The notes below the pieces were generated by a model, which was not told the origin of the DNA, made no database searches, and saw only the letters and a list, made by a program, of their open reading frames with translations. 64,000 nt of DNA, from the IMG/VR virus record IMGVR_UViG_3300006098_000001, one strand, 5' to 3'. The position numbers and the translations under genes are program-made. Positions 3,971 to 14,779 of this stretch are shown one piece after another (position 1 is the stretch's first letter; every line of letters starts with the position of its first letter). Source of the stretch: a virus.

Positions 3971-4183
3971 TTAGTTTAGCAAGTTCGTCAATAGTACCCG
4001 TAGAAGTGGTAAGGTCACTGCAATAACAATAACTGTAATGAATACAGCTAAAATACTGTACTTCTTGAACCTGATTAGCCTTTCGCTATCTCGTTCTAAC
4101 TGCTTAATGTATTCAGGATCAACCAACTTGTAATCCTGTTCAGCGTATTTCTGTAGTTCCTTTTGTGACATCATAATTATCAA
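3971..4183 (-). CDS. small protein with C-terminal transmembrane helix
   Basis: Track ORF; hydrophobic SILAVFITVIVIAVTLPLL segment. Start is ambiguous (TTG 4183 or ATG 4174). First gene downstream of the long leader. Confidence 0.55.
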   Translation of the reverse strand: MIIMMSQKELQKYAEQDYKLVDPEYIKQLERDSERLIRFKKYSILAVFITVIVIAVTLPLLRVLLTNLLN

Positions 4184-4189
4184 AACCTT

Positions 4190-4790
4190 TCTAATTTGCT
4201 TCAGCGGTTATTATTAATCGCTTTATATAGAGTCTTATCGTGTTGATAAGGCTCTCTAAAAACAATTAATAGTGTCTTTTTCACTTTCACAGGCTTAAAC
4301 CAAGGAATATTAGCAAGTCCCTGCTGGTAGTATCACGGTGCCTTTATCTACTATTGATTAGGCGGTTGACGTGGAATCACCTACCCCTACCGTACCGGGT
4401 TATTTACCAACTTTTGATATTGCGGAGTTGTTCTCAGTTCTACTGAAAGATTGAACCGCCGTTATTTTGTTTTCAAAGTTCAGCATATGTTGGTTTGAAA
4501 GTGATTGAGTATGCTCTCGCTCACACTGTCCGCCACCTTAACTTTTAGCTTGAATACAGTTATGGCTTTATCCTGCCCTAGGTGATATATGGAATCCTAC
4601 ACCCTTGCGGTTTATCAAGTTATTATGTTAAGCCTGTTCAGCCCGTTGACTTTTGCGACTTGTTAACGTTTTTTGAATTGGTAACTTTCCAATTAGTTTG
4701 AACAATTTTATATAACATCGTAAGTTATATAAGGATAACCTTTTATTTCTTAATCGCTTCAAGGCTTGCGATTGCCTGCTCCTTTATCGT
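4190..4790 (-). ncRNA. about 600-nt GC-enriched untranslated leader / candidate large structured RNA
   Basis: No ORF of 60 aa or more in any frame between 4184 and 5192. Visibly higher GC than flanks. Lies directly downstream of four consensus minus-strand promoters. Many local hairpins (AATCGC/GCGATT, AATTGG/CCAATT, a GCAA-loop hairpin, an 11-bp AGAGCCTTATC/GATAAGACTCT stem) and possible long-range pairs (GGCGGTT 4362 with AACCGCC 4453). Confidence 0.3.
4709..4731. promoter_or_regulatory. operator-type palindrome TATAAC-N7-GTTATA without promoter hexamers
   Basis: Same half-sites as the operators embedded in the four upstream promoters. It lies inside the leader, so it may act as a roadblock. 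Confidence 0.45.
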
Positions 4791-4796
4791 GTCTTT

Positions 4797-4825
4797 ATTA
4801 TAACTTCCGATGTTATAATTGTCAA
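4797..4825 (-). promoter_or_regulatory. consensus sigma-A promoter P1 with embedded operator
   Basis: Minus strand reads TTGACA-17 nt-TATAAT. The palindrome TTATAAC-TTCCGAT-GTTATAA (4798-4818) fills the spacer and overlaps the -10. Confidence 0.65.
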
Positions 4826-4921
4826 GACTTAATTTTTTGAATTGTAGCGGTTGACCTTGAAGTCAAAGTTAGATACTCAAGTGAACTCACTTTCAATCCA
4901 TTTATTAAGTTTGTGCTTTTT

Positions 4922-4951
4922 ATTATAACTTCGTAAGTTATAAATTGTCAA
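4922..4951 (-). promoter_or_regulatory. consensus promoter P2 with embedded operator
   Basis: Minus strand TTGACA-18 nt-TATAAT; operator TTATAAC-N7-GTTATAA at 4923-4943. Confidence 0.65.
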
Positions 4952-5037
4952 GAAGTAAATTTGATTAATTTTTAATCACCTAGGCTAGTTCGATGACTGC
5001 TCTTTATTGTGATTGTCCTAATCAACTTTACGGCTTT

Positions 5038-5066
5038 ATTATAACTTCCGATGTTATAAATGTCAA
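5038..5066 (-). promoter_or_regulatory. consensus promoter P3 with embedded operator
   Basis: Minus strand TTGACA-17 nt-TATAAT; operator at 5039-5059. Confidence 0.65.
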
Positions 5067-5128
5067 TACCTTTTTCAAATTATTTTTGATACCTGGTATT
5101 TATTGCCGTTGTCCTTTTGACGATTCCA

Positions 5129-5156
5129 ATTATAACATCGCAAGTTATAAAGTCAA
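5129..5156 (-). promoter_or_regulatory. promoter P4 with embedded operator
   Basis: Minus strand TTGACT-16 nt-TATAAT; operator TTATAAC-ATCGCAA-GTTATAA at 5130-5150. Confidence 0.6.
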
Positions 5157-5164
5157 CTATTTTT

Positions 5165-5200
5165 TGTAAAAAAATAAGAGTAGTTATAATAACTACTCTT
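5165..5200 (-). terminator. rho-independent terminator of gene 5193..5423
   Basis: Perfect 10-bp stem AAGAGTAGTT/AACTACTCTT followed on the minus strand by ATTTTTTT. Confidence 0.65.
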
Positions 5201-5423
5201 GTAATTCTTTTAGGCGCTTATCTAATTCAATTTTAAACTCTTTCAAATCACTGATATAAGTATCTCTTATATCTATATTAGATTTTATTAATTGATATAA
5301 TCTTGTTTTAGATGATGGGCGAATAAAGCCCCCCGCCTCACTCTTACGCTTCCAATAGTAAGCTTTATCTGGATTAGCTTTTTCATAATTCTTTTTTGCT
5401 TGTTTTTGTGCTTCACTAACCAA
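5193..5423 (-). CDS. small basic protein, candidate operator-binding regulator (paralog of 6701..6898)
   Basis: Track ORF; AGGAGG RBS. Its own promoter carries a sixth copy of the operator. It shares the KxYxE...KKSxAxxF...RLKEL pattern with 6701..6898. Confidence 0.5.
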   Translation of the reverse strand: MVSEAQKQAKKNYEKANPDKAYYWKRKSEAGGFIRPSSKTRLYQLIKSNIDIRDTYISDLKEFKIELDKRLKELQE

Positions 5424-5445
5424 GACTTCACCTCCTTTTTACTTT

Positions 5446-5477
5446 ATAACATGGTAAGTTATAAGTATTATACCATA
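5446..5477 (-). promoter_or_regulatory. extended -10 promoter (TGGTATAAT) plus operator over the transcription start
   Basis: Minus strand TGGTATAAT at 5477-5469. TTATAAC-ATGGTAA-GTTATAA at 5446-5466 lies just downstream of the -10. Confidence 0.5.
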
Positions 5478-5508
5478 CTCAACAGAAATAAAACTACACA
5501 ATCAGTAA

Positions 5509-5537
5509 TTGACTATTACAATACTTAAGTTTAAAAT
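5509..5537 (+). promoter_or_regulatory. promoter of micro-ORF 5570..5668
   Basis: TTGACT-17 nt-TAAAAT. Confidence 0.55.
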
Positions 5538-5569
5538 TGTTATATCTCCTTGAGTAAGGAGGTGACAAC

Positions 5570-5668
5570 ATGAAACATAATGAAAAAGAAAAGAAACAAC
5601 CCTATAAGGCTTTTTACTTTGAGTGTAGCCTAATAAAGTTATTTCTTAAAATCATCATTATAAAGTAG
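5570..5668 (+). CDS. 32-aa peptide MKHNEKEKKQPYKAFYFECSLIKLFLKIIIIK (toxin-like micro-ORF)
   Basis: Strong RBS AAGGAGGTG, own promoter and terminator. A clear paralog lies on the opposite strand at 5863..5958. Below the track's length cutoff. Confidence 0.45.
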   Translation: MKHNEKEKKQPYKAFYFECSLIKLFLKIIIIK

Positions 5669-5678
5669 TGTAATCACT

Positions 5679-5723
5679 TCCCTGAGTTGTTGTGTGACGG
5701 CTCAACCCAGGGAGATTTTTATT
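5679..5723 (+). terminator. terminator of micro-ORF 5570..5668
   Basis: 11-bp stem TCCCTGAGTTG/CAACCCAGGGA (one mismatch) followed by a T run. Confidence 0.5.
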
Positions 5724-5731
5724 ACAATTAC

Positions 5732-5740
5732 ATTATATCA
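5732..5740 (-). promoter_or_regulatory. extended -10 (TGaTATAAT) for an antisense RNA covering the 3' end of 5570..5668
   Basis: Minus strand reads TGATATAAT immediately beyond the terminator, pointing back into the micro-ORF. Confidence 0.4.
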
Positions 5741-5766
5741 CAATTTATTGTGGTATTATATATTTG

Positions 5767-5795
5767 TTGATATGATATTACTAGATTGTTATAAT
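5767..5795 (+). promoter_or_regulatory. strong promoter for an antisense RNA covering the 3' end of 5863..5958
   Basis: TTGATA-17 nt-TATAAT with TG extension at 5787-5788. Confidence 0.6.
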
Positions 5796-5801
5796 ATAGA
5801 T

Positions 5802-5848
5802 ACAAGAAAACCCCTAAAGGTTGTTAACTTGTCCGTTAACCTTTAGGG
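5802..5848 (-). terminator. terminator of micro-ORF 5863..5958
   Basis: Long hairpin CCCCTAAAGGTTGTTAAC/GTTAACCTTTAGGG followed on the minus strand by TTTTCTTG. There is no T run on the plus strand, so the plus-strand antisense RNA can read through. Confidence 0.5.
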
Positions 5849-5862
5849 CGGTGAGTTATTCA

Positions 5863-5958
5863 CTACTTAATAATAAAGAATTTAAAGAATAATCTTAAAA
5901 GGCTGAACTCGCAATATACAACCTTAAAAGATTGTTCTTTTTTCTTTTTATTGTTCAT
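5863..5958 (-). CDS. 31-aa peptide MNNKKKKEQSFKVVYCEFSLLRLFFKFFIIK (paralog of 5570..5668)
   Basis: Hand translation checked base by base; RBS AGGGGGTGGG upstream of the ATG at 5958; alignable along its full length with the other peptide. Confidence 0.45.
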   Translation of the reverse strand: MNNKKKKEQSFKVVYCEFSLLRLFFKFFIIK

Positions 5959-6242
5959 GTTCCCACCCCCTTTCCTTAAGGGGTTAAAATAATTTAAACA
6001 TCGTTATTTCTGAAAGTCAATAATTGAAAAAGAAAAAGCCAAAACGCAAAAGTAAAAAACGTTAAGGCTTAAAGGCTTAAAAGCTTACATATTGAGGGAA
6101 CGTGGCGCCGTTCCCTTTTTGTATAATTATCATATCATACTTACAACCCTAACAGAATAGAAAAATAACACCCCTTTATTTTTCTATATAAGGAAGAAAA
6201 AACATAATAAAAAAACGATAAAGAAAAAAATAAATATACATG

Positions 6243-6273
6243 TTGACAACATGAAGAATTGTGTTATTATAAT
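6243..6273 (+). promoter_or_regulatory. strong promoter
   Basis: TTGACA-16 nt-TATTAT with TG extension (alternatively TATAAT at 6268). Confidence 0.55.
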
Positions 6274-6345
6274 ATACGTAAGCTATTAATATAGTTTACA
6301 AGGCGACACACTAACAACAAATAATAAAGGTTTGAGGTGGTCAAA

Positions 6346-6486
6346 TTGTATTCTATATTGTTGCATGCTGCAACCTTGTTTAGTTTGGTAAGTGGTGGAA
6401 TTCTGGCGATAGTAACATCAATCGAAAAAGTTCTTATCATAAAAGAAAAAGCCCACAAGTCAGATAAGGACAAGGGGCAAAAATAA
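6346..6486 (+). CDS. 46-aa small membrane protein (MYSILLHAATLFSLVSGGILAIVTSIEKV...)
   Basis: TTG start 5 nt after GAGGTGG; consensus promoter upstream; clean terminator downstream; one predicted TM helix. It competes with the unsupported track ORF 6267..6473 (minus). Confidence 0.45.
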   Translation: MYSILLHAATLFSLVSGGILAIVTSIEKVLIIKEKAHKSDKDKGQK

Positions 6487-6505
6487 CTTACATTTATGAA
6501 TATTT

Positions 6506-6533
6506 GGGAAGTGTTGCGACCACTTCCCTTTTT
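6506..6533 (+). terminator. rho-independent terminator
   Basis: GGGAAGTG/CACTTCCC stem followed by TTTTT. Confidence 0.65.
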
Positions 6534-6573
6534 CTACAGTGTTATAATAACATAATAAAAAGGGTGTGACAAT

Positions 6574-6681
6574 ATGAAATGGATCATATTAATTGGTCTA
6601 TATCTTTTCGGGTTTGTTTGTCTAACGGTTGCGATCAAAAAGGCGAGAAAAATATATAATACTTTAAAGCATAATAAATAA
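6574..6681 (+). CDS. 35-aa hydrophobic peptide MKWIILIGLYLFGFVCLTVAIKKARKIYNTLKHNK
   Basis: ATG-initiated micro-ORF with one TM-like segment and a basic tail; weak RBS (AGGGTG). Confidence 0.35.
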   Translation: MKWIILIGLYLFGFVCLTVAIKKARKIYNTLKHNK

Positions 6682-6700
6682 TTAAAATAAATATAGAATT

Positions 6701-6898
6701 ATGGAAAACAAACAAAACAAAACAAGTAAAGCAAAATTACAAGCAAATAAACGCTATCAAGAAAGACATAAAAAAGAAGTTTATCGCAATCAGAAAAAAT
6801 CTAGGGCGAAAAATTTTCTATTGAATGATGCAAGGATTGACGAACTAGAATTTTTTTCTGAATTAATTTCTGAAAGATTGAAAGAATTAAAAAAATAA
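6701..6898 (+). CDS. small basic protein, paralog of 5193..5423
   Basis: Track ORF; the shared KRYQE...KKSRAKNF...RLKEL pattern aligns with the other protein. Confidence 0.55.
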   Translation: MENKQNKTSKAKLQANKRYQERHKKEVYRNQKKSRAKNFLLNDARIDELEFFSELISERLKELKK

Positions 6899-6949
6899 TA
6901 ATAGTAATTAGGGTAATGCGTTAGTGTTTAGCGTGTTGCCCTTTTGCAT

Positions 6950-7590
6950 TGTGGTTATATGATAACGCTTACATAGTGATGTATAGCAGTGTATAGGTAT
7001 TACAGTGATATGTATATAGTAGCGTGCATAGTGTTGTTATGATAGTGATATATAGTAGTGTTATTTGTGTCTGTGTATAGATGTATATAGGTTAGTGAGT
7101 GAGTAGTGTTACATAGTGATATGCATAGTGAAGTAATATGATAGTGTAGTGATGTATATAATGTATTGAGTTAGTAACTGATTTACGTTTGTAGATATTA
7201 GATTGTCAAGGCTGAGAGTGAGTGCGGTGTATGGGGTGTAGTGTGATTAGTATGTTTGATATATGATAATGTTTTCATATGTTATTGTAATGATATAGTA
7301 AGTGAGTAGTATATTGATATGTATGTATTGAGTGAGTAAGTAGGCGGATTGCGTGAGTGTGTTTGGTTAGTTAGTTATTATATTAGGGGTGTGTATTAAG
7401 TTACGTTTGTAAATTTTAAATTGTCAAGAGTGAATTTTTATGGTCTGGGTTTATTATTGTGTTGGTTGTGATATGTATTAGTTAGATTTTATTTATTAGG
7501 GGTGTGGGTGAATTATTGGGCGGTGTTAGGTTAGGTAAACGGTTATTATATTAATTTATTGGGTGTTTGGTGTGGTGTGTGAGTATGTGT
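6950..7590. repeat. C-depleted (G/T/A-only) arm of a mirror-composition region with degenerate TAGTGAT/GTATAT-type repeats
   Basis: By hand count, about 23 C in the 600 nt of 6961-7560. No ORF. Two copies of TTACGTTTGTA-N-ATTGTCAAG (7184-7210, 7401-7429). Confidence 0.7.
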
Positions 7591-7617
7591 GAACATTTGT
7601 TCATAGCAGATTATAAT
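7589..7617 (+). promoter_or_regulatory. candidate LexA-controlled promoter
   Basis: GTGAAC-17 nt-TATAAT, with the Cheo box 7590-7603 covering the -35 and spacer. Confidence 0.4.
7590..7603. promoter_or_regulatory. LexA (Cheo/SOS) box tGAACATTTGTTCa
   Basis: Perfect GAAC-N4-GTTC core of the Firmicutes LexA operator. Confidence 0.55.
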
Positions 7618-7623
7618 ATATGA

Positions 7624-7749
7624 AATTTTGTTCATATGAATTAGTGAAAAGTACCCTACCCAGCCCACCAAAATAAATATATTAAGTTTACAACTGTAGC
7701 CCCTTATAAATAAAATTACCCCTTATCAAAAGATAGGGGCTTTCTTTTT
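7624..7749 (+). ncRNA. candidate short SOS-controlled transcript (about 125 nt)
   Basis: Runs from the promoter at 7589-7617 to the terminator at 7719-7749. It contains only an 18-codon ORF with no RBS. Confidence 0.3.
7719..7749 (+). terminator. rho-independent terminator
   Basis: CCCCTTATC-AAAA-GATAGGGG followed by CTTTCTTTTT. Confidence 0.65.
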
Positions 7750-8051
7750 CGATATTAAAATATTCTTGTAACCGTTTACACATAACAACAACTATTATTG
7801 TGTCTTAAATTTGCAAATAGGCGGGGGTTATTTTACTCAAAACGCCTTAATTTTTAGGGAAAATTTTAGGGTAGTTGCTTCACTCACACACCACAAAATT
7901 TTTTCCATTCACCCCATTTCTCGCACCCTATCACCCCTCAAATATCCCAATAAATTAATACCAAATTTAACCTTTTCAAAACTATGAAAATATCTTTCAT
8001 AATCTTTCAACACAATATCCCTACCCATTCCTCTCACCCTTTCCCATTCAA

Positions 8052-8087
8052 CTATAAATAAAGAGCCTAGGAATTACCCTAGACTCT
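8052..8087 (-). terminator. terminator of gene 8086..8412
   Basis: AGAGCCTAGG/CCTAGACTCT stem (one mismatch) followed on the minus strand by TTTATTTAT. Confidence 0.45.
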
Positions 8088-8412
8088 AATTCATCTCATT
8101 ATTAATATACTCTTCTAACCCAACTCTGGTCTCGTCATCTAAATTGGCAACATACTCCCTATATTTACTCAAATAGCCCTCATTAATACTACTAATTACA
8201 TATAATATATACCCTTCGTATAGACCATCTGGACACTTTAATAATCGCTGCATCAGTCTCATTAAATAGTAATACTGTTCATCATAACCATCATTCATAT
8301 ATTTATTCTCAAATATATAATATGCAGTCCAAATAATATTATCGTCCCTATTTTCTAAACTGGATATACCCCATAGTTCCTTAATTATAGTATCTAGTTT
8401 AATAATCTCCAC
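8086..8412 (-). CDS. orphan 108-aa protein under a LexA-box promoter
   Basis: Track ORF with GTG start and GGGGA RBS. It is the only sizeable ORF in 6.9-9.6 kb, and its coding strand shares the C-poor composition of the arm. Confidence 0.55.
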   Translation of the reverse strand: MEIIKLDTIIKELWGISSLENRDDNIIWTAYYIFENKYMNDGYDEQYYYLMRLMQRLLKCPDGLYEGYILYVISSINEGYLSKYREYVANLDDETRVGLEEYINNEMN

Positions 8413-8450
8413 TGTCGTTTCCCCATTCTTATATTAAACGTATGTTCCCT

Positions 8451-8459
8451 TGTTATAAT
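8451..8459 (+). promoter_or_regulatory. extended -10 element TGtTATAAT facing rightwards
   Basis: Read directly; the LexA box starts 4 nt downstream. No clear -35. Confidence 0.35.
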
Positions 8460-8483
8460 ACACGAACGAATGTTCTTTATCAA
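8455..8483 (-). promoter_or_regulatory. promoter of 8086..8412 with a LexA box in its spacer
   Basis: Minus strand TTGATA-17 nt-TATTAT. The 17-nt spacer is AAGAACATTCGTTCGTG, which is the Cheo box. Confidence 0.55.
8463..8476. promoter_or_regulatory. LexA (Cheo/SOS) box CGAACGAATGTTCT
   Basis: Matches 13 of 14 positions of CGAACRNRYGTTYC, with a perfect GAAC-N4-GTTC core. Confidence 0.6.
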
Positions 8484-9561
8484 GTATTATCAGTAAATAG
8501 ATACATATATCGCTTTATAGTACATTTTTATATTTATGTTCTTAATGCCATATACCTAATTATTCTGATTTATGAAAATATTGCGCACCCAAAATAGCCA
8601 TTTTTTGAAACAAAGAAAATTGCCTCTCGCTTTCATAACAATTATTTTCATAAAATTACTCAAAACTACCCTATTTTGCACCCAATAAAATCTTCGAAAC
8701 TCCCTATGAGGAATTCCTCAATTCACAAACTTTCGACTTCTACACAAACAACATTACTGAATTTAATTATACTTTGTGAATTTTTCTTCACTAATTCAAG
8801 AATTCAATTCTAAATAACTAAAATATGAACAAAAATTGTTATGAAAACATCGTTTTATGCATACCTAACTTATTTACGAAATAATCTGTCTTATTGTACA
8901 AAACTAAAAATTCATCATTCTTAATATTTCGCACCCTACTACTCATGTAACTAACCCTATCGAAACTCCCTATTTTTCATTTTGATATTTTTACTCAAAT
9001 CACTGAATTTTTAACCAAAAAAAATGAACTAATACCAAATCCTATTTAATAGGATCTAGTAGTACTTTTTTATAATTATTATTCACTTGAGACATTTATT
9101 AGTACATCTTCGATAATACAAGGGGTTTCAAACATCTAATTCCAGAAAATTTCACAAACTTAAAAAGGGTGCGGGGTATTTTTACTCTAATAACCTATAA
9201 TTATATGTTTCGTATTGGTTCATTATTTCCACTCAGACTATTTTTCATAATTCCGCCGCCATCTATCCATTGTAATAGGAAGAAAACCTCTATTTTCTAT
9301 CACTGCTTTTATTGTCGCTTGTGAAGTCATCAAAAAATGCTGTTTCATTTTTATGTAACTATTCTCGCCTTCTTTTTCTCTTTAAACACAGCCAAACACC
9401 AACGTAGAATGGAGTTAACGGGTCATAAATCAAAATTACATTAATTTATCTAAATCAGCTCTTAGCCCCATTATTCATTGTTCGTTTTGATTATTTATGA
9501 GCAATAATTATGTAGGTCAATTATTAAAACAGCTATTCCACAAGTTCCTTTAAATAAAAAA

Positions 9562-9590
9562 CAGCGACAGTAAATACCACCGCTGAAATA
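9562..9590 (-). terminator. weak terminator downstream of the toxin-like micro-ORF
   Basis: CAGCG/CGCTG stem followed on the minus strand by TTTTTTATTT. Confidence 0.35.
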
Positions 9591-9598
9591 ATTACGGA

Positions 9599-9688
9599 TT
9601 ACTTACATAACCACTTACTAATCTTTTTAATTAAATGTTTAACGTGCTTATTAGGCACAATCAATATTATTAGACACCAATGCGTCAT
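9599..9688 (-). CDS. 29-aa Fst/Ldr-like type I toxin candidate MTHWCLIILIVPNKHVKHLIKKISKWLCK
   Basis: Hand translation. The AGGAGG RBS is locked in a perfect hairpin AAAGGAG-TTGC-CTCCTTT. Hydrophobic N-half and basic C-half. It lies next to the partition genes. Confidence 0.45.
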   Translation of the reverse strand: MTHWCLIILIVPNKHVKHLIKKISKWLCK

Positions 9689-9750
9689 AAAGGAGTTGCC
9701 TCCTTTCTGCACTAGTCGGGTTTCCTAAGCCCGCTCAAATGTGCCTAATT

Positions 9751-9759
9751 ATTGTATCA
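9751..9759 (-). promoter_or_regulatory. extended -10 (TGaTACAAT) for the toxin-like mRNA
   Basis: Read on the minus strand about 60 nt upstream of the ATG. Confidence 0.4.
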
Positions 9760-9770
9760 TATTTATTTTA

Positions 9771-9779
9771 TGCTATAAT
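9771..9779 (+). promoter_or_regulatory. extended -10 (TGcTATAAT) for a divergent sRNA
   Basis: Read directly; back to back with the toxin promoter. Confidence 0.45.
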
Positions 9780-9785
9780 ATAGTT

Positions 9786-9873
9786 ATCAATATTATTAGG
9801 CCGTGTGATGTGGGTGCTTCCTAGCTCACGCATTGGTTTAACGTGGGGCGCCCTGATAGGCGCTCTTTTTTTT
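9786..9873 (+). ncRNA. candidate antitoxin sRNA (about 88 nt)
   Basis: Bounded by the promoter at 9771-9779 and a terminator (GGGCGCC/GGCGCTC stem plus T8, 9846-9873). Its 5' ATCAATATTATTAG (9786-9799) repeats 9660-9673, so it is complementary to codons 6-10 of the toxin mRNA. Confidence 0.4.
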
Positions 9874-9882
9874 ATTTAAAAT

Positions 9883-9922
9883 AAAAGCCACAGTAACTAG
9901 TTTATCTGTTACTGTGGCTTTT
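9883..9922. terminator. bidirectional terminator at the end of the parM-parR operon
   Basis: Perfect 15-bp stem AAAAGCCACAGTAAC/GTTACTGTGGCTTTT with A and T runs on both sides. Confidence 0.7.
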
Positions 9923-9983
9923 CACATTTTATATTACTTTATATGTTTAATTCCGATTAAATCATATATAATCAGATTAAGTA

Positions 9984-10373
9984 TTACGATAACATGTCTA
10001 AATTAGGCCTGTTTTTCAATTTAGAACTCAAAGAACTGTCATCAGTTTTAGAGTCATTATCGTTTTTCTTATTTCCAATTCTTGTCCTTAATTTGCGCTT
10101 GGGCTTTTCTTCAACATCGACATCATCATTCTCTTCTACCGACGTCTTTTCTTCTAGTTTTGAAACTGAGTTAATAGTACCTAACTGTCCATCTAAGCTT
10201 GCACTATCTAAAATAGCTTGGATAAGATCACCAGTTCCATATTTCCTAACTACCATTTCTAATGCCCTAATAGCAGCCGGAGAAAATTGTGACTGGTTTT
10301 TAGACCATTCTGCAACTTTTGAATCCTCGGGAATAAGGATAGTTTTTCTAATCATTTTCGCCATAAAAATCAC
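9984..10373 (-). CDS. ParR-like centromere-binding adaptor (N-terminal RHH-like segment, charged tail)
   Basis: Track ORF immediately downstream of the actin-like ATPase gene. Size and the KTILIPEDSKVAEW beta-strand-like N-terminus fit ParR. The call rests mainly on position. Confidence 0.5.
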   Translation of the reverse strand: MIFMAKMIRKTILIPEDSKVAEWSKNQSQFSPAAIRALEMVVRKYGTGDLIQAILDSASLDGQLGTINSVSKLEEKTSVEENDDVDVEEKPKRKLRTRIGNKKNDNDSKTDDSSLSSKLKNRPNLDMLS

Positions 10374-10378
10374 ACTCT

Positions 10379-11590
10379 CTATAAGGCTTCAACAATTACT
10401 TGTAATCCTAATTCATTTAAATATTGTGCATATTCCTTATCAATCCAAATTACTGGAACATCATATCCACCACTGAAGCTCTTAAGTTTTTCGTTCAATA
10501 CTTCGCGAAGATTACTCTCATCTAGCATTGGAATGGAACCACCACCATATACGTAAACAAGTTCAGTATCCTTAGCGATACGCATTGTTTGACTAACTGT
10601 ATCGATAATCTTGTCAGCTAATGGTTCTAATTGGTCGTAAACAACTTGACGTACTTTATCTTGGCGAGCTCGACGCAATGGACTGACCTTTTCAGATAAG
10701 AAACTCTGTAATTGTGAACGTTCCTCAAAATTCATTTGTTGATCTTGAAGAACACGCACTGCATCTTGTAATACATTTCCGTATCCTTGTGGTAACGAAG
10801 CTGATGCTGCTGGATTAGCTTTACCGTTAATAATTGCTACTACATCAGTAGTCCCTTCTCCGATATCAATTCCAAGTACATTTCGTGAATTAATAAGGTC
10901 GTCAGCTCCAACTTCATCCTTCATTTCTGAATAGTTCTTATCAAAGTCTTCCTTAATTTTATCTGTTAATCCATCATAATCGGAGGAAATAAGCATTTGG
11001 GCTGTTTCACCTTCTAATGCAACATATACTTTATTAAATTCAATGGTTACATTAATTGGATCCTTAAAGTTATGGAAAGTTACTGTATGCGTACTACCCA
11101 TGTAACGTTCTTTGTAACGATCTTTTGCATTATTAACCTTACCTTCTGAAATAGGTAACGCAGTCGCCATATTAACTTTTACCTTTAGAGTCTCCTTTAA
11201 GTCTTGTCCAGCTTCATATGCTTCTTTTACTTTCTTCCCAGCTATCAAACTTAAAGTAAGAATAATTGCTAAATCTGTTTCTGATTTACCAGTAAAGTCA
11301 TTAACATCAAAAGCCCTCATAGATAGACCACTGTCGATCGCAGCATTACCAATTAAAAATCTTCCAGAGGTTTTTACTGCATTACTTGACACACTAACGT
11401 CCATGTTATTAAGAAAGTTCTTCATATATGTATCTTGATCTTGTTTAGAATCAAATTCCATAGGAGCTTGTACATCTTGTGGACGTTCTGCTGCTATAAC
11501 TGACGGAAACTTAATATTTTCACCATCAACATTTGCTTTTACAGAACCATATCCCAAATCATTTGCAACCTTCATAATCTTCTCAACCAT
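10379..11590 (-). CDS. parM: actin-like segregation ATPase (ParM/Alp family)
   Basis: N-terminal NDLGYGSVKA phosphate-1 motif, GIDIGEGTTDV phosphate-2 motif and YVYGGGS adenosine motif. About 400 aa. Confidence 0.7.
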   Translation of the reverse strand: MVEKIMKVANDLGYGSVKANVDGENIKFPSVIAAERPQDVQAPMEFDSKQDQDTYMKNFLNNMDVSVSSNAVKTSGRFLIGNAAIDSGLSMRAFDVNDFTGKSETDLAIILTLSLIAGKKVKEAYEAGQDLKETLKVKVNMATALPISEGKVNNAKDRYKERYMGSTHTVTFHNFKDPINVTIEFNKVYVALEGETAQMLISSDYDGLTDKIKEDFDKNYSEMKDEVGADDLINSRNVLGIDIGEGTTDVVAIINGKANPAASASLPQGYGNVLQDAVRVLQDQQMNFEERSQLQSFLSEKVSPLRRARQDKVRQVVYDQLEPLADKIIDTVSQTMRIAKDTELVYVYGGGSIPMLDESNLREVLNEKLKSFSGGYDVPVIWIDKEYAQYLNELGLQVIVEAL

Positions 11591-11756
11591 TATTTCTACC
11601 TCCGATTTATAACATAATCATATTATATCATACTTAATACAAATTTAAGTGTAACTAAATAAGATATTTTATTTTTTTATATGATATAATCTTCTTTTTG
11701 ATTACCACAATGTTAATAATACTATGTATTTAACATAATGTAAATAACATTTAACA

Positions 11757-11767
11757 CTTTTAGAAAG
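11757..11767. repeat. parS-like site (reverse complement of GTGTTAAATGT)
   Basis: The inverted copy of AAAGTGTTAAATGT, also found at 13060-13073, lies downstream of the parA operon and upstream of parM. Confidence 0.35.
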
Positions 11768-11811
11768 TTTTATGAAGGCAAATAAAAAACGCTTTGGTAG
11801 CGTTTCATAGT

Positions 11812-12141
11812 TTACTTAAGGCTTTTAGACATGTAGTCCTTTTGCTCTAATATATTATACATTCTATCAAATCGAGTTTTTTCACTCTCGTTTAATTCAG
11901 CAATTTCACTCTCAATCATATGTTCGACAACTGCCTTTGCATTTTTTGCAACACCAAGATTAATTAAGGCAGAAACCTTATTACGAATATGATTGTCAAC
12001 ACGTATATTAACTGGAAAGGACACTTCTTTATTGTCTGTTAAGATGTCTTCTTTTTTTGTTATCTCCTTGAATGATGGCTTTGCATCTACCTCACTATTT
12101 TTCAAGGAATTCTTTGATTTAGCTGGCTTTGATATTGCCAT
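11812..12141 (-). CDS. small RHH (ParG/CopG-like) centromere-binding partner of ParA
   Basis: Track ORF overlapping the parA stop by 1 nt (TAATG). The segment FPVNIRVDNHIRNKVSALINLG looks like a ribbon-helix-helix. Confidence 0.55.
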   Translation of the reverse strand: MAISKPAKSKNSLKNSEVDAKPSFKEITKKEDILTDNKEVSFPVNIRVDNHIRNKVSALINLGVAKNAKAVVEHMIESEIAELNESEKTRFDRMYNILEQKDYMSKSLK

Positions 12142-12953
12142 TATTCATGTGCCTCCTTAATACGCCCTAAAAGTTCAACTGCAACTTCTTTATAAACATT
12201 GAGAGTTTTTTTGTCCCATGCATCTCTATCTTCTGTAATACCTGTGACGTCATAATTTTTAGCTCTTTCCATAATCCTAATATGACTATTAAAAACGTCA
12301 GCTCCCCATTCTTCTCTTGATTTTTCCAAAATCAATTGATCGACTTTAGCATTGTCTTTAGATAAAACAGGAACAACTGCTAATACTTCTGTGTCAGCAA
12401 TATACTCATCAATTATGTCGTCTTGAATATATTCAATAAAGTCTTTTGCATCGTCAAAAGCTCTTTGTTGAGTTTGAAGAACAATTACTAATTCGTCACA
12501 AGCATACAAAGCTGTATCATTTTGTAAACTCAACGTAGGACTAACATCTATAAAAATGTAATCATACTTGTCCTTTATATCACTTAGCTTATTTTTAAAG
12601 GATGCGACACGCTCCTTTTCATTAAGATAAGCATGTTCAAGATATCTAGGATATAGATAAAAATCACTAGCAGTTGGGACAAGATAAAGATTATCCATTA
12701 CCTGAACTGTAACATTATCCAAACTTTCATTATCTTTAATAGCGCTCATTAGCGTCTTGTTAAATGATAAAATCTCATCAGACTTTTGACTCTTTGTCTT
12801 TACCATCAATGTTGTCAAATCTGCCTGTGGATCAAAATCAATTAATAATACCTTATTCCCCATTTTTGCCAAACTATACGCTACCAATGCAGTGGTCGTT
12901 GTCTTACCAACACCACCCTTTTGATTACACATTGAAATTACTTTTGCACTCAT
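12141..12953 (-). CDS. parA: ParA/Soj-type partition ATPase (type Ib size)
   Basis: Deviant Walker A NQKGGVGKTTT and DFDPQ motif; 270 aa. Confidence 0.8.
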   Translation of the reverse strand: MSAKVISMCNQKGGVGKTTTTALVAYSLAKMGNKVLLIDFDPQADLTTLMVKTKSQKSDEILSFNKTLMSAIKDNESLDNVTVQVMDNLYLVPTASDFYLYPRYLEHAYLNEKERVASFKNKLSDIKDKYDYIFIDVSPTLSLQNDTALYACDELVIVLQTQQRAFDDAKDFIEYIQDDIIDEYIADTEVLAVVPVLSKDNAKVDQLILEKSREEWGADVFNSHIRIMERAKNYDVTGITEDRDAWDKKTLNVYKEVAVELLGRIKEAHE

Positions 12954-13007
12954 TTCAATTCCACCTCACCTATTTATTAAGTACTATAATATCAAACCTT
13001 TCGGATT

Positions 13008-13074
13008 GTGTTAAGTGTAATATGTAATGTATATTATATGAATCGCATAAAACTACACAAAAGTGTTAAATGTG
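13008..13074. repeat. parS-like direct repeats GTGTTAARTGT upstream of parA
   Basis: GTGTTAAGTGT at 13008 and GTGTTAAATGT at 13063, plus a related AATGTGAAAT at 13090. Confidence 0.4.
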
Positions 13075-13129
13075 ATTTATATAATGCATAATGTGAAATA
13101 TATTATTAATTATAAATTATGTATAAAAC

Positions 13130-13176
13130 ATATCCCATTATATATAATGTTTTTAATACTATACATAATGGGATAT
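13130..13176. repeat. 12-bp perfect inverted repeat ATATCCCATTAT / ATAATGGGATAT (23-bp spacer)
   Basis: Read directly in the divergent parA-repA intergenic region; candidate operator. Confidence 0.5.
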
Positions 13177-13260
13177 ACACGACTTATTAATATCTATTGA
13201 CTTTTTAGGTTTTTGATGGGATTATCTACTTGTAACAACAAACTATCCAAATGTGTTACA

Positions 13261-13395
13261 GGTGAGAGTTATTTATATGATTGGCTCACACAAAACAATT
13301 TTATATCTGCCCGAAAATAAGTCACTATCAAAGTATATGTTCGTGAGATAGTGTTATTTAAGCGTGATTTAATATGGTTCACGCAAAATATATTG
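13261..13395. repeat. two ~45-50-bp direct repeat units upstream of repA
   Basis: GTGAGAGTTATTTA..GGCTCACACAAAACA and GTGAGATAGTGTTATTTA..GGTTCACGCAAAATA. Confidence 0.4.
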
Positions 13396-13693
13396 AACAT
13401 TATTGTTATATTGCTATTTAAATTCGGGTATGGTATCTTATATTACATACCACAATAAGTGGTATTTTAGGCGAACCAAGTTTGAGAAGGATTAGGCACC
13501 CTTTGATAACTATTACAACTGAATAAAGAGTATAAAAAAAGACCCAACCATTAGGCATTTGGTTAGATCGACAAAAAAAACTTTTATTCATATATTGTAT
13601 GTATTTATAATACCATACTTTGTCGATTAATCAATAGGTTGAGCTTGTTTTCTTATACTCATTTTCAAATAAATGAATTAAGGAGAAACTACA

Positions 13694-14779
13694 ATGAATA
13701 ACCAAAAAGCATTTCTAGGTATCAACCTAGATTTACTCGAAAATCCAAAATATAAGAATTTAGACTCCCGTGCAATGATGTTGTACGCTCTTTACGCTGA
13801 CCGCTATTCTGCATCAATGAATAACGCTCGTTTAGGGAATACTGCATTCGTTGATGACATGGGAGTCTTTATTCGTTTTACTAATGAATTAGCCGCTAAG
13901 GTACTTCACACAACAGCCAAAATGATTAGCAAATTTCGTAAGCAATTAGAATCAGAGAATTTAATTAAGATTGTTCGTGAAGGACTTAAGGGTTACAAAA
14001 TCTATGTTTACCCAGTTCAACAAACACCAAATAATGTTGAGCTTCTTTTGCCATGGAAAAATCATACCATCACTGTACAAAAGACTATTTCTGACTGGAC
14101 TATTGCATCCAAGCTTGAATTCAGTAAAACTCTTAAATTATCTTCTCAAACCATTGATATGACTGTGAAGTCCCAACGGGAATACACGTGCAACCAAAAA
14201 GGGAATACTAGTTTATCTCACTCTAGTTTATCTCATGTATTTTTAAATAATAATGGATTGGATGATAACGCGCGTACGCGTAAGGAAAATGAAATTCAAC
14301 CCAATCAATCAAACAAGAATCCATATCACTCTTTACCAGAAAAGATAAAGAATTCATTTGGTGATGTATTTGGTTTTATTACAAAGCCTATGGCTATTGA
14401 ACTACATTCTCTAATCAGTCAAGCTAACGAAGACATGGTTAACTACGTAATTACAAGCAGCAAAGGTCATAAGGTTACTAATGCTATCGCATATATCAAA
14501 GCCGCTATTACCAATGCTATTAAACGAGGGGATAAGTGCGCCCAAGATATGATTGACTTTTATAACAACAACGTAAAAACTACGTTCTCTAGTTACAAGA
14601 AAAAGCCAGCAAAGCGTTTTATGTCTGAAGAAGAAGTAAATGCTATGGTTGCAAAAGACGAAGAAGAAATGCGCCAAAACAATCCGAAGCTTTACACTCG
14701 TATACAGGAAATTAAGCGTCGCAGCGCAGAAAAGGCACAGAATCGTCCAGAAATTCCAATCTATAAGCTTGAGTTTTAA
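13694..14779 (+). CDS. RepA_N-type theta-replication initiator with DnaD/DnaB-like C-terminal domain
   Basis: The N-terminus LLENPKYKNLDSRAMMLYALYADRYSASMNN...FIRFTNELAAKVL matches the RepA_N pattern of Firmicute plasmids. The C-terminal MVNYVITSS...AIAYIKAAITNAIKRG resembles the DnaD-type domain. Confidence 0.6.
   Translation: MNNQKAFLGINLDLLENPKYKNLDSRAMMLYALYADRYSASMNNARLGNTAFVDDMGVFIRFTNELAAKVLHTTAKMISKFRKQLESENLIKIVREGLKGYKIYVYPVQQTPNNVELLLPWKNHTITVQKTISDWTIASKLEFSKTLKLSSQTIDMTVKSQREYTCNQKGNTSLSHSSLSHVFLNNNGLDDNARTRKENEIQPNQSNKNPYHSLPEKIKNSFGDVFGFITKPMAIELHSLISQANEDMVNYVITSSKGHKVTNAIAYIKAAITNAIKRGDKCAQDMIDFYNNNVKTTFSSYKKKPAKRFMSEEEVNAMVAKDEEEMRQNNPKLYTRIQEIKRRSAEKAQNRPEIPIYKLEF

What the first reader, a model, noticed from the sequence alone, without database searches (positions are those of the whole stretch)
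6950..9230. 2.3-kb region with mirror-image, strand-exclusive base composition around a dyad centre
From about 6950 to 7590 the plus strand is almost C-free (about 23 C in 600 nt by hand count). From about 7870 to 9230 it is almost G-free (about 12 G in 240 nt). The two arms are therefore compositional reverse complements. They also share inverted 14-mers in the matching order: ATTAATTTATTGGG at 7550 with CCCAATAAATTAAT at 7946, and TGTGGTGTGTGAGT at 7571 with ACTCACACACCACA at 7882. The midpoint is near 7733-7755, on the terminator hairpin of the LexA-box transcript. Both arms are full of short degenerate repeats (TAGTGAT and GTATAT on the left; TTACTCAAA, GCACCC and TCGAAACTCCCTAT on the right). 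The only real gene inside, 8086..8412, obeys the same skew. This is far beyond ordinary GC skew and matches no element class I know. Outward transcripts would be G-free and unstructured, while inward ones would be G/U-rich. Possibilities include arrays of protein-binding sites, a lytic origin or packaging region, or a diverged ancient inverted duplication.
Basis: seen in the sequence. Interest (0 to 1): 0.75.

Follow-up and report, generated by a model that had tools for sequence, protein, structure and literature searches.

The report
Strand-exclusive tracts in reuteri phage-plasmid
A Limosilactobacillus reuteri phage-plasmid has, at one spot beside its early-gene control region, about 650 bases with almost no C on one strand and then a stretch with almost no G; every relative keeps this composition while the sequence turns over, and its function is unproven, though strand-specific control of transcription is the likeliest.

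Summary
Window 6950-7590 has 23 C in 641 nt. 7880-8110 has 7 G in 231 nt. The best C-poor and G-poor segments of the 64-kb window abut here. In a 132.6-kb relative, every 200-nt window with |GC skew| >0.6 lies in this one locus. The replicon is an L. reuteri phage-plasmid (~130 kb). The locus sits between the par/rep module and a leftward train of small early genes (antirestriction ArdA in relatives).

More than 20 family loci keep the composition. The left arm is often unalignable: a fast-evolving mosaic of C-free short repeats such as (GTAT)n and (GAGT)n. The right inner arm is non-repetitive and avoids new G.

The symmetry is compositional. The inverted 14-mers are lineage-specific, and there is no evidence of an inverted duplication. 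Centromere or iteron arrays, a dif site, G-quadruplexes and packaging were tested or weighed, and none is supported.

Best reading (about 0.3): RNAs leaving the central promoter/operator module in either direction are G-free. They would therefore lack structure, start codons and Shine-Dalgarno sites, making them Rho-loading or barrier tracts. The right inner arm fits Rut criteria well. The left arm fits only partly. Function remains open.

The parts
6910..6942 (+). Intrinsic terminator ending the rightward small-gene module (p49 6337-6486, 35-aa hydrophobic peptide 6574-6681, p65 6701-6898). It blocks inward transcription into the left arm.
   Evidence: Terminator scan, 15-pair stem plus T run; ORFs.
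6943..7590 (.). Left arm: the plus strand is nearly C-free (3.6% C, 28.5% G, 42% T). It is a mosaic of short degenerate repeats with purine/T alternation, and it is the fastest-evolving segment of the locus.
   Evidence: 37% variable columns, 160 gap columns; period 2; AGTGA 12 copies against 1.5 expected; ATGTA 8 against 2.2.
7247..7326 (.). Conserved island inside the left arm (TGATATATGATAATGTTTTCATATGTTATTGTAATGAT...). It is the only left-arm sequence alignable in all subfamilies. A diverged second copy lies at 6943-6975.
   Evidence: BLAST against L003, L005, L006 and L007; repeat family D5.
7183..7215 (.). C-containing element TTACGTTTGTAGATATTAGATTGTCAAG, with a second copy at 7401-7433. 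On the minus strand it reads TTGACA-17-GTAAAT. The -10-like part is not conserved in relatives, so it is probably a binding site rather than a promoter.
   Evidence: Repeat family D3; present in L039-L043 and the metagenome loci.
7590..7640 (.). Control centre. Overlapping divergent promoter-like sites: rightward TGAACA-16-TATAAT at 7590-7617, and leftward TTCATA-16-TATTAT at 7640-7613. LexA (Cheo) box GAACATTTGTTC at 7591-7602. 7-6-7 palindrome ATATGAA-ATTTTG-TTCATAT at 7618-7637. The palindrome or operator is swapped for other 7-6-7 palindromes in other subfamilies.
   Evidence: Promoter scan; sequence; comparison of 14 relatives.
7640..7755 (+). Small C-rich transcript-like unit that ends in a conserved intrinsic terminator (stem 7720-7739, T run to about 7750). 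No covariation seen, and no Rfam family matches.
7823..7898 (+). Conserved box 1 (GGGGGTTATTTTACTCAAAA, 7823-7842) followed after exactly 42 nt by CACACACCACAAAA (7885-7898). This marks the inner edge of the right arm in every relative, including the distant L013.
7880..8085 (.). Right inner arm: the plus strand is nearly G-free (3.4% G, 32% C). It is non-repetitive, rich in CACCC and YC, aligns without gaps among close relatives, and avoids new G.
   Evidence: C/T 20, A/C 9, A/G 1, G/T 0; 22.3 YC per 100 nt; window maximum 23.5.
8062..8087 (-). Intrinsic terminator of the p108 gene. It blocks inward (leftward) transcription into the right inner arm.
   Evidence: Terminator scan.
8086..8412 (-). 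p108, an all-helical ORFan found only in the 'long-type' subfamily. Its promoter TTGATA-17-TATTAT (8483-8455) overlaps the LexA box GAACGAATGTTC at 8464-8475.
8413..9172 (.). Right outer arm: non-coding and G-poor (about 9% G). It carries dispersed direct TTTACTCAAA, GCACCC and TCGAAACTCCCTAT motifs, two-orientation TTTCATAA/TTATGAAA motifs, and an island TTTGTGAATTTTTCTTCACTAA (8773-8794) that is 100% conserved.
9173..9196 (+). Box 2 (GGGGTATTTTTACTCTAATAACCT), a direct repeat of box 1. It closes the right arm in every relative, 1350 nt (long type) or 458 nt (short type) from box 1.

Best explanation
The two arms are composition-coded, strand-specific transcription barriers flanking the control centre (promoters, swappable operator, small RNA) of a phage-plasmid. 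Any RNA that leaves the centre is made from a template lacking C. That holds leftward through the left arm, towards the early gene train (antirestriction ArdA in relatives, then replication genes). It also holds rightward through the right arm, antisense to p108 and the par/rep genes. Such an RNA lacks G.

A G-free RNA cannot form G-C or G-U pairs. It cannot carry AUG, GUG or UUG start codons, and it cannot carry a Shine-Dalgarno site. It therefore stays naked and ribosome-free, which is the substrate preferred by termination factor Rho and by single-strand RNases. Because only composition matters, the sequence is free to turn over by slippage, provided no C (left) or G (right) accumulates.

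Inward transcription is stopped separately by intrinsic terminators at the outer edges.

Shown: the composition, its conservation and uniqueness, the lack of structure and of start codons, the selection against the missing base, and the surrounding gene and terminator layout.

Inferred: that the arms are transcribed outward, that Rho acts on them, and that the purpose is to insulate or time the early operon.
For: - Replicon and layout. Plasmid hits are all L. reuteri. Tape measure, portal and terminase show it is a phage-plasmid. The whole stretch from parA through the locus to the early genes is transcribed leftward, and the origin lies near repA (PMC4667477).
- In L003, L005 and L007 the left arm abuts the extended -10 promoter of the first early gene.
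- Outward RNAs are G-poor with C>G: left 28.4% C and 3.7% G; right inner 32% C and 3.4% G.
- They are almost structure-free. Four of the five 200-nt windows of the left arm fold at -0.8 to -4.3 kcal/mol (-13.4 in the outermost), against -34.7 +/- 6.3 for background.
- The two longest start-codon-free stretches of each strand of the 64 kb lie in this locus, on the outward-sense strand: two in the left arm, one in the right inner arm, and one antisense to p108. There are 0 and 1 SD-like motifs.
- These are the descriptors of Firmicute Rut sites: pyrimidine-rich, G-poor, C>G and U>G, unstructured, mostly antisense, and enriched in prophages (PMC12350095).
- Composition is conserved in more than 20 family loci while the sequence is replaced.
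- Selection. In the right inner arm G-creating changes are 3.5- to 6-fold rarer than their strand-symmetric counterparts. In the left arm 10 of 11 majority-C columns are invariant, while new C arises as rare variants but does not accumulate.
- Intrinsic terminators guard the outer edges against inward transcription.
Against: - No expression data exist. The outward promoters are consensus matches only, and are convincing only in some operator variants.
- The left arm is not YC-rich: 10.5 YC per 100 nt against a background of 9.3, because its C mostly follows A.
- It is 5-10 times longer than mapped Rut sites (about 100 nt). Near-total exclusion of one base is far more than Rho needs.
- The element is unique on the replicon, whereas generic insulators might be expected at several operon borders.
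- The conserved C-containing islands, the boxes with a fixed 42-nt spacing, and the iteron-like TTTTCATAAAAT repeats point to additional sequence-specific DNA-level functions.
- That L. reuteri has Rho rests on my memory and was not verified here (searches gave nothing).
Confidence: 0.3

Rival explanations
1. A DNA-level cis site for a bidirectional machine, most plausibly the lytic replication origin. In this view the centre is melted or transcriptionally activated, and helicases moving outward each track a strand of pure composition. The right-arm repeats would be initiator-binding iterons.
For: - One copy per replicon.
- A regulated, in some lineages LexA-controlled, promoter at the centre.
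- Direct repeats TTTTCATAAAAT at 14-21-nt spacing in short-type relatives. TTTACTCAAA occurs five times in direct orientation. Boxes sit at fixed distances.
- The replicon encodes its own DnaB-like helicase and AAA ATPases downstream in the same transcription direction.
- Symmetry about a centre suits any bidirectional process.
Against: - Skew polarity (+ then -) is the opposite of that at replication origins. The cumulative skew minimum, which marks the origin, is at repA 8-10 kb away.
- No initiator gene is adjacent.
- The left arm is not unusually AT-rich (30-34% GC).
- Its repeats show no helical phasing.
- Iteron regularity is seen only in the short-type right arm.
Confidence: 0.2
2. The arms have no function of their own. 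The left arm would be a runaway microsatellite region seeded by C-free units and perpetuated by slippage. The right arm would be an extreme of the replichore- and transcription-linked mutational skew.
For: - The left arm evolves fastest and by indels.
- Motif spacing is in multiples of 4 nt.
- Draft assemblies often break inside it.
- The whole right flank shows the same direction of substitution asymmetry, only weaker.
Against: - At least six different repeat units in different lineages all lack C, and non-repetitive parts are C-poor too.
- The boundaries are sharp.
- The left arm's polarity is opposite to that of its replichore and neighbouring genes.
- New C arises at about the rate of A>G, yet C stays at 2-4%.
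- The non-repetitive right inner arm avoids G strongly.
- The tract is retained in all family members, including the distant L013.
Confidence: 0.15
3. The arms encode functional G-free or C-rich non-coding RNAs. The right inner arm and the central small RNA would act as UCCC/CACCC-rich anti-Shine-Dalgarno regulators. The left-arm minus-strand RNA, rich in UACAU, would be a decoy for a MazF/PemK-type endoribonuclease encoded by the plasmid.
For: - CACCC and UCCC motifs recur in the right inner arm and the central RNA.
- ATGTA (UACAU in minus-sense RNA) occurs 6-35 times per left arm against about 2 expected, in every lineage.
- A PemK/MazF toxin gene lies in the same leftward gene train in NZ_CP065541.
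- LexA boxes would make expression SOS-inducible.
Against: - No promoter or terminator defines such RNAs.
- No Rfam match.
- Sequence is not conserved between subfamilies.
- ATGTA enrichment follows trivially from (GTAT)n slippage.
- The cleavage specificity of this toxin is unknown, and UACAU comes from other Firmicute MazF enzymes (my memory).
Confidence: 0.12
4. The arms are polar DNA signals pointing at the centre. The G/T-rich strands run 5' to 3' towards the centre on both sides. This is the arrangement of KOPS around dif, of Chi/RecA-preferred GT-rich 3' tails at a break, or of telomere-like ends if the virion DNA is cut at the centre.
For: - The geometry fits: plus strand G/T-rich on the left, minus strand G-rich on the right.
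- 7-6-7 palindromes at the centre resemble recombinase core sites as much as operators.
- The locus is a hotspot of module exchange between plasmids.
Against: - No dif-like site: nothing reaches 19 of 28 matches in the region.
- Recombinase genes are not adjacent.
- The terminase and HNH-like endonuclease are 11-12 kb away.
- Plasmid records are closed circles across the locus, and p53608_1 was closed by PCR.
- The palindrome sits directly at a -10 box, as operators do.
- G-run motifs are absent in short-type relatives.
Confidence: 0.08
5. The left arm is a centromere or iteron array bound by one of the plasmid's partition proteins: DUF5388 'RepC' with its ParA, in the manner of pAD1, or ParR of the ParM system.
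For: - A RepA_N / ParA / DUF5388 module and a ParM/ParR module lie 2.4-7 kb to the right.
- TAGTGA-type units recall the TAGTARRR iterons of pAD1 (my memory).
Against: - No co-variation. L007 has a 99% identical RepC but an unalignable arm. L001 has unrelated RepC and ParA, and ParM at 52%, yet an 85-89% identical arm.
- A DUF5388 system in E. faecalis has short TGTACAC(C/T) repeats directly upstream of parA, and these are not C-free.
- No helical phasing.
- ParM plasmids of other Limosilactobacillus species lack the tract.
Confidence: 0.05

Closest known systems
Rho-utilisation (Rut) sites and Rho-dependent terminators, such as lambda tR1 and the mapped B. subtilis Rut sites (PMC12350095)
   Same: The signal is strand-specific and defined by composition, not sequence: G-poor, C>G and U>G, unstructured, untranslated RNA. 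Such sites are often antisense to genes and enriched in prophages. The right inner arm also matches in pyrimidine and YC richness.
   Different: These tracts are 200-1200 nt rather than about 100 nt. One base is almost totally excluded. They come as a mirror pair around a control centre. The left arm is A/pyrimidine-alternating, not YC-rich, and is built of microsatellite-like repeats. No Rho dependence has been shown.
Iteron or centromere arrays of Gram-positive RepA_N / ParA-DUF5388 and ParMR plasmids (pAD1-type repBC iterons, R1 parC)
   Same: Arrays of short degenerate direct repeats in non-coding DNA near par/rep genes. The units are G/T/A-rich.
   Different: No fixed unit. Spacing is in multiples of 4 nt rather than helical turns. 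There is no co-variation with the partition proteins. The arrays are not at the par promoters, and they are 5-10 times longer.
KOPS/dif polarity and GC-skew switches at replication termini
   Same: The G-rich strand points towards a single site from both sides, and the sign of the skew flips at that site.
   Different: The scale is hundreds of bases rather than a whole replichore. The magnitude is 0.8 rather than 0.05-0.2. No dif-like core is present. The site is 6 kb from the origin rather than opposite it.
G-skewed R-loop-forming tracts (ColE1 RNA II origin region, immunoglobulin switch regions)
   Same: Extreme G-over-C asymmetry in the non-template strand for inward transcription. G-run motifs on the minus strand of the right inner arm.
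   Different: Inward transcription is blocked by intrinsic terminators at both outer edges. The (GTAT)n parts have no G runs. G4 motifs are absent in short-type relatives.

Membership tests
Rho-utilisation (Rut) site | RNA is G-poor with C>G and U>G bias | tested here: met
   Outward RNAs: left arm C 28.4%, G 3.7%; right inner arm C 32.0%, G 3.4%; whole right arm C 22.2%, G 6.8%. Criteria taken from PMC12350095.
Rho-utilisation (Rut) site | Pyrimidine-rich with YC-type anchor motifs | tested here: inconclusive
   Right inner arm: 62% pyrimidine and 22.3 YC per 100 nt (window maximum 23.5), so met. Left arm: 54% pyrimidine and 10.5 YC per 100 nt (background 9.3), so not met.
Rho-utilisation (Rut) site | No stable RNA secondary structure | tested here: met
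   Left-arm minus-sense RNA folds at -0.8 to -4.3 kcal/mol per 200 nt in four of five windows (-13.4 in the outermost). Right-arm plus-sense RNA folds at -12 to -27. Background is -35 to -40 +/- 6-8.
Rho-utilisation (Rut) site | Untranslated RNA (no ribosome loading) | tested here: met
   The two longest start-codon-free stretches of each strand of the 64 kb lie in this locus on the outward strand. They are 7279-7426 and 7428-7595 on the minus strand, and 7985-8143 and 8145-8321 on the plus strand. Three of the four are in the arms proper and the fourth is antisense to p108. SD-like motifs number 0 and 1.
Rho-utilisation (Rut) site | Length of about 50-130 nt | tested here: not met
   The arms are about 650 nt, and 200 to 1200 nt.
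Rho-utilisation (Rut) site | Transcribed in the relevant direction, with Rho-dependent 3' ends, in a host that has Rho | not testable with these tools
   No expression data. Promoters are consensus matches only. The literature search gave no statement on Rho in L. reuteri.
Partition centromere or iteron array (ParA-DUF5388 or ParR) | Repeats co-vary with the cognate DNA-binding protein | tested here: not met
   The same RepC goes with a different arm (L007), and different RepC, ParA and ParM go with the same arm (L001).
Partition centromere or iteron array (ParA-DUF5388 or ParR) | Regular unit, helically phased, located at the par promoter | tested here: not met
   Pair distances are 4, 8, 12, 16... 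with no peak at 10-11 nt. The array lies 2.4 kb from parR and 4.2 kb from repC. A reference DUF5388 system has 8-bp repeats directly upstream of parA.
Replication origin | Skew switches from - to +, and the cumulative skew minimum falls at the site | tested here: not met
   The switch here is + to -. The cumulative minimum is at repA, 83.7 kb against 93.5-94.8 kb in NZ_CP065541.
Replication origin | Initiator-binding iterons and an adjacent initiator gene | tested here: inconclusive
   TTTTCATAAAAT direct repeats at 14-21-nt spacing occur in short-type relatives, and dispersed motifs occur in the window. No initiator gene is adjacent.
Inverted duplication or IR-bounded element | The arms align as reverse complements | tested here: not met
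   Only two 14-15-mers match. Local alignment z is about 2.5. The matches are not conserved in relatives.
Xer/dif site with polar guide sequences | A dif-like 28-31-bp core at the centre | tested here: not met
   There is no match of 19 of 28 or better to the B. subtilis or E. coli dif, or to difSL, in the region.
G-quadruplex or R-loop tract | Four or more G runs on the G-rich strand, conserved | tested here: not met
   The only G4 motifs of the window are on the minus strand of the right inner arm. None is present in the left arm or in short-type relatives.

The most novel reading that the evidence does not exclude
The pair of arms is a new kind of cis element in which selection acts on the absence of one base per strand rather than on sequence. 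It would be a polar 'track' pair that gives direction-dependent behaviour to a machine moving away from, or towards, the lysis-lysogeny control centre of a phage-plasmid. That machine could be RNA polymerase with Rho, a replicative helicase, or a DNA translocase. Microsatellite turnover would be tolerated because only composition is read.
Probability: 0.2. Interest if true: 0.8.

Novelty: new variant of a known kind. Interest (0 to 1): 0.6.

Why it matters
If the arms work as proposed, they would be the clearest natural case of a regulatory element encoded purely by strand composition. A phage-plasmid would be keeping hundreds of bases free of one nucleotide so that RNA leaving its control centre is naked, untranslatable and terminable.

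That would give a simple, portable design rule for directional transcription insulators in Gram-positive bacteria. It would also give a handle on how L. reuteri phage-plasmids keep lytic genes silent.

If the transcription model fails, the locus is still a unique, conserved, strongly selected feature of unknown function. It lies next to an SOS-controlled switch, and it is a tractable entry point to a possibly new cis-acting mechanism.

It also has a practical consequence: the left arm breaks short-read assemblies of these plasmids.

Tried and rejected
- **pAD1-type RepC iterons or a ParR centromere.** Rejected by lack of co-variation, lack of phasing, and comparison with a DUF5388 system in E. 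faecalis.
- **Ancient inverted duplication.** The arms do not align, and the 14-mers are lineage-specific.
- **Known RNA families.** No Rfam hit in 4000-14000 apart from one chance snoRNA match. The central RNA shows a conserved terminator but no covariation.
- **dif/Xer site.** None found.
- **G-quadruplex or R-loop tract.** Motifs occur only in some lineages.
- **Link to the flanking phrog_2277 proteins (p65, p76).** Homologous genes in other phages have no skewed tract next to them.
- **p108 and p65.** No Pfam domain. p108 has only near-identical homologues and a helical model with no fold match. p65 is predicted as a helical hairpin. Neither is informative.
- **Search for distant lineages.** A box-1 pattern in IMG/VR gave mostly unrelated chance hits. 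The stricter two-box pattern in metagenomes returned only family members. ParM relatives in other Limosilactobacillus species lack the tract.
- **Phage GenBank collection.** No match.
- **Literature.** Searches for TAGTARRR, DUF5388, L. reuteri phage-plasmids and Rho in L. reuteri gave nothing usable.


Full report
**What the replicon is.** The region matches only large Limosilactobacillus reuteri plasmids in PLSDB. There are 7 records of 52-139 kb, of which 6 carry rep_cluster_2483 (p53608_1 carries no replicon type) and all are typed 'non-mobilizable'. Nothing matches in the GenBank phage collection. The window encodes a 3029-aa tape measure protein (PhageMin_Tail), a portal, a terminase-like protein and a 2387-aa tail protein with a carbohydrate-binding domain. 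It also encodes a RepA_N initiator, a ParA/DUF5388 pair and a ParM/ParR pair. It is therefore a phage-plasmid. One published member is p53608_1 of strain ATCC 53608, described as a 138.5-kb circular megaplasmid with an 'incomplete prophage' and nearly all genes co-oriented with replication (PMC4667477).

In the complete relative NZ_CP065541 the cumulative GC-skew minimum falls at repA. Two gene trains diverge from there. In window orientation, everything from parA (12953) leftward is transcribed leftward. That covers repC, parM, parR, the locus under study, and a long train of small early genes followed by replication genes. The early train includes ArdA in relatives. The locus is thus the non-coding gap between the plasmid-maintenance module and the early train.

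**Check of the observation.** The hand counts are correct.
- 6950-7590 holds 23 C in 641 nt (skew +0.78).
- 7880-8110 holds 7 G in 231 nt (skew -0.82).
- 7870-9230 as a whole holds 107 G in 1361 nt (7.9%, skew -0.46).

The 25 most skewed 600-nt windows of the 64 kb all lie here, against a background of +0.08 +/- 0.17. With a maximal-segment score (+1 per base, -8 per forbidden base), the best C-poor segment is 6538-7653 (score 504) and the best G-poor segment is 7878-9088 (score 473). The best segments anywhere else score 108 and 155. On the whole 132.6-kb relative, every 200-nt window with |skew|>0.6 lies in the homologous locus. The element is therefore unique on the replicon.

The two inverted 14-mers exist in mirror order. 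An exact inverted match of 14 or more appears in 3% of dinucleotide shuffles, and all shared 12-mers derive from those two blocks. The inner arms do not align beyond them (score 32 against 23.3 +/- 3.4). Relatives have only 8-12-nt inverted matches at shifting positions. The symmetry is compositional.

**Conservation.** The same profile appears in all seven PLSDB relatives, in the IMG/VR family contigs that span the locus, in five Logan/ENA loci and in eight of eight metagenome hits. The profile is a 520-770-nt arm with 13-25 C, a roughly 300-nt centre, and then a G-poor arm. p53608_1 has 300 nt with no C at all.

Yet the left arm aligns only within one subfamily. In L003, L005, L006 and L007 it is built from other units: (GTAT)n, (GAGT)n, GATAGTGATATAT, (TTGGT)n and ATAATG. 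A more distant relative, L013 (ParM 56% identical), has a weaker left arm (C 6.8% over 353 nt). It has a strong right inner arm (G 3.9%, C 37% over 178 nt) behind the same conserved box. Two groups lack any such tract: ParM plasmids of other Limosilactobacillus species, and phages carrying homologues of the flanking p65/p76 proteins.

**Anatomy.** From left to right:
- A rightward small-gene module (p49, a 35-aa hydrophobic peptide, and p65) ends in an intrinsic terminator at 6910-6942.
- The left arm spans 6943-7590. In L003-type relatives this module is absent and the left arm directly abuts the extended -10 promoter of the first leftward early gene, a p76 homologue. The same boundary sequence lies at 6140-6215 in the window.
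- The centre (7590-7880) carries overlapping divergent promoter-like sites, a LexA box, and a 7-6-7 palindrome that is swapped for different palindromes in other subfamilies. It also carries a small C-rich transcript-like unit with a conserved terminator, and box 1 followed at exactly 42 nt by CACACACCACAAAA.
- The right arm runs from there to box 2 (9173), a direct repeat of box 1. It is 458 nt long in short-type relatives. In long-type relatives it is 1350 nt long and contains the leftward, LexA-boxed ORFan p108 with its terminator at 8087-8062.

**The two arms differ in kind.**

The left arm is the fastest-evolving segment. It has 37% variable columns and 160 gap columns, whereas the flanks are about 90% identical. 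It shows strong period-2 purine/T alternation (0.59-0.69 of steps against 0.49 expected). Motif distances are multiples of 4 nt, with no 10-11-nt phasing. AGTGA (9-20 copies against 1.5 expected) and ATGTA (6-35 against about 2) are enriched in every lineage. Its few C residues sit in conserved islands: 10 of 11 majority-C columns are invariant. New C appears as rare variants at about the rate of A>G but does not accumulate.

The right inner arm is non-repetitive and aligns without gaps. It shows C/T 20, A/C 9, A/G 1 and G/T 0 variable columns. G-creating changes are 3.5- to 6-fold rarer per site than their strand-symmetric counterparts. Both patterns indicate selection on composition.

**Consequences of the composition.** Minus-sense RNA of the left arm is essentially unstructured: -0.8 to -4.3 kcal/mol per 200 nt in four of five windows, -13.4 in the outermost. 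Background is -34.7 +/- 6.3, with the least stable background window at -20.7. The two longest start-codon-free stretches of each strand of the window all fall in this locus on the outward-sense strand: two in the left arm, one in the right inner arm and one antisense to p108. SD-like motifs are absent from the left arm, and there is one in the right inner arm. Inward transcription meets intrinsic terminators at both outer edges.

**Interpretation.** The known signal that is both strand-specific and purely compositional is the Rho-utilisation site. In B. subtilis, Rut sites are about 100 nt long, pyrimidine-rich, G-poor, C>G and U>G biased and unstructured. They are mostly antisense to genes and enriched in prophages (PMC12350095). 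The outward RNAs of both arms meet the G-poor, C>G, unstructured and untranslated criteria to an extreme degree. The right inner arm is also near the window maximum for YC dinucleotides. The left arm is not YC-rich, and both arms are much longer than mapped Rut sites.

I therefore propose, at about 0.3, that the arms are direction-specific transcription barriers. They would confine or time transcription leaving the control centre. Leftward, that transcription heads towards the early operon. Rightward, it runs antisense into p108 and the par/rep genes. Excluding G is the simplest way to forbid structure, start codons and ribosome binding all at once, and slippage is tolerated because sequence is irrelevant. 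That the arms are transcribed outward and that Rho acts on them is inference. I did not verify that L. reuteri has Rho.

**Rivals.**
- **Lytic origin or other bidirectional DNA machine (0.2).** It is favoured by uniqueness on the replicon, the regulated central promoter and the iteron-like right-arm repeats. It is opposed by the terminus-type skew polarity and the lack of an adjacent initiator.
- **Non-functional microsatellite plus mutational skew (0.15).** It is opposed by the many independent C-free units, the reversed polarity, the sharp edges and the substitution spectra.
- **Functional G-free RNAs, such as anti-SD regulators or a MazF decoy (0.12).**
- **Polar DNA signals towards a break or recombination site (0.08).**
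- **Partition or iteron arrays (0.05).** This was tested and largely rejected.

**Verdict.** The finding is genuine, statistically extreme and conserved at the level of composition. It occurs once per replicon, and I could assign it to no described element class with confidence. It is confined to one L. reuteri phage-plasmid family, and its function remains to be shown experimentally.

Noticed in passing
window 6574-6681 (+): A 35-aa hydrophobic peptide with a basic tail (MKWIILIGLYLFGFVCLTVAIKKARKIYNTLKHNK), preceded by an SD-like site. It lies between p49 and p65 and resembles a type I toxin or a small membrane peptide.
   Followed up: partly
window 7591-7602 and 8464-8475: Two Gram-positive LexA (Cheo) boxes, GAACATTTGTTC and GAACGAATGTTC. 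They overlap the central promoter pair and the p108 promoter, suggesting direct SOS control in this subfamily. Other subfamilies carry different palindromes at the centre.
   Followed up: partly
window 9984-12953 (-): Two partition systems lie back to back: ParM plus a 129-aa ParR-like protein, and ParA plus a DUF5388 'RepC'. They are shuffled independently among otherwise related plasmids. ParM identity to the window ranges from 52% to 100%, and RepC identity from 52% to 99% where the gene is detectable at all. This indicates frequent module exchange around the skewed locus.
   Followed up: partly
window 30783-37946 and 41902-50991 (+): Very large tail genes: a 2387-aa protein with a CBM_4_9 domain and a 3029-aa tape measure protein. 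A tyrosine-recombinase-sized ORF (40774-41802) lies just upstream of the tape measure gene.
   Followed up: no
window 7912-8060 (minus strand): The only G-quadruplex-type motifs (four G3+ runs, loops up to 12) in the whole 64 kb lie on the minus strand of the right inner arm. They are absent in short-type relatives.
   Followed up: yes
L008, L010, L011, L029, L036, L056, L061 (contig ends): Contigs of draft genome and metagenome assemblies end inside or at the edge of the locus (the left arm, the centre, or in L008 the right outer arm). L056 and L061 both start 665 nt upstream of box 1. This is probably assembly failure on low-complexity repeats, but repeat-length heterogeneity is possible.
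   Followed up: partly
L002 8635-10315: An IS200/IS605 element (tnpA plus tnpB) is inserted just beyond the right arm of NZ_CP065541, about 380 nt past box 2, between it and the par genes. A second TnpB gene lies among the structural genes.
   Followed up: no
window 6140-6215: The sequence ACTTACAACCCTAACAGAATAGAAAAATAACACCCCTTTATTTTTCTATATAAGG marks the left border of the left arm in L003-type plasmids, where it carries the early-gene extended -10 promoter. In the window it is separated from the arm by the 0.7-kb p49-peptide-p65 module, which looks like an insertion.
   Followed up: partly
window 7689-7700; L007 about 5405-5420: The short palindrome TTACAACTGTAA in the central unit appears as the inverted 10-mer CAGTTGTAAA in short-type relatives. 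It may be a second operator-like site.
   Followed up: no
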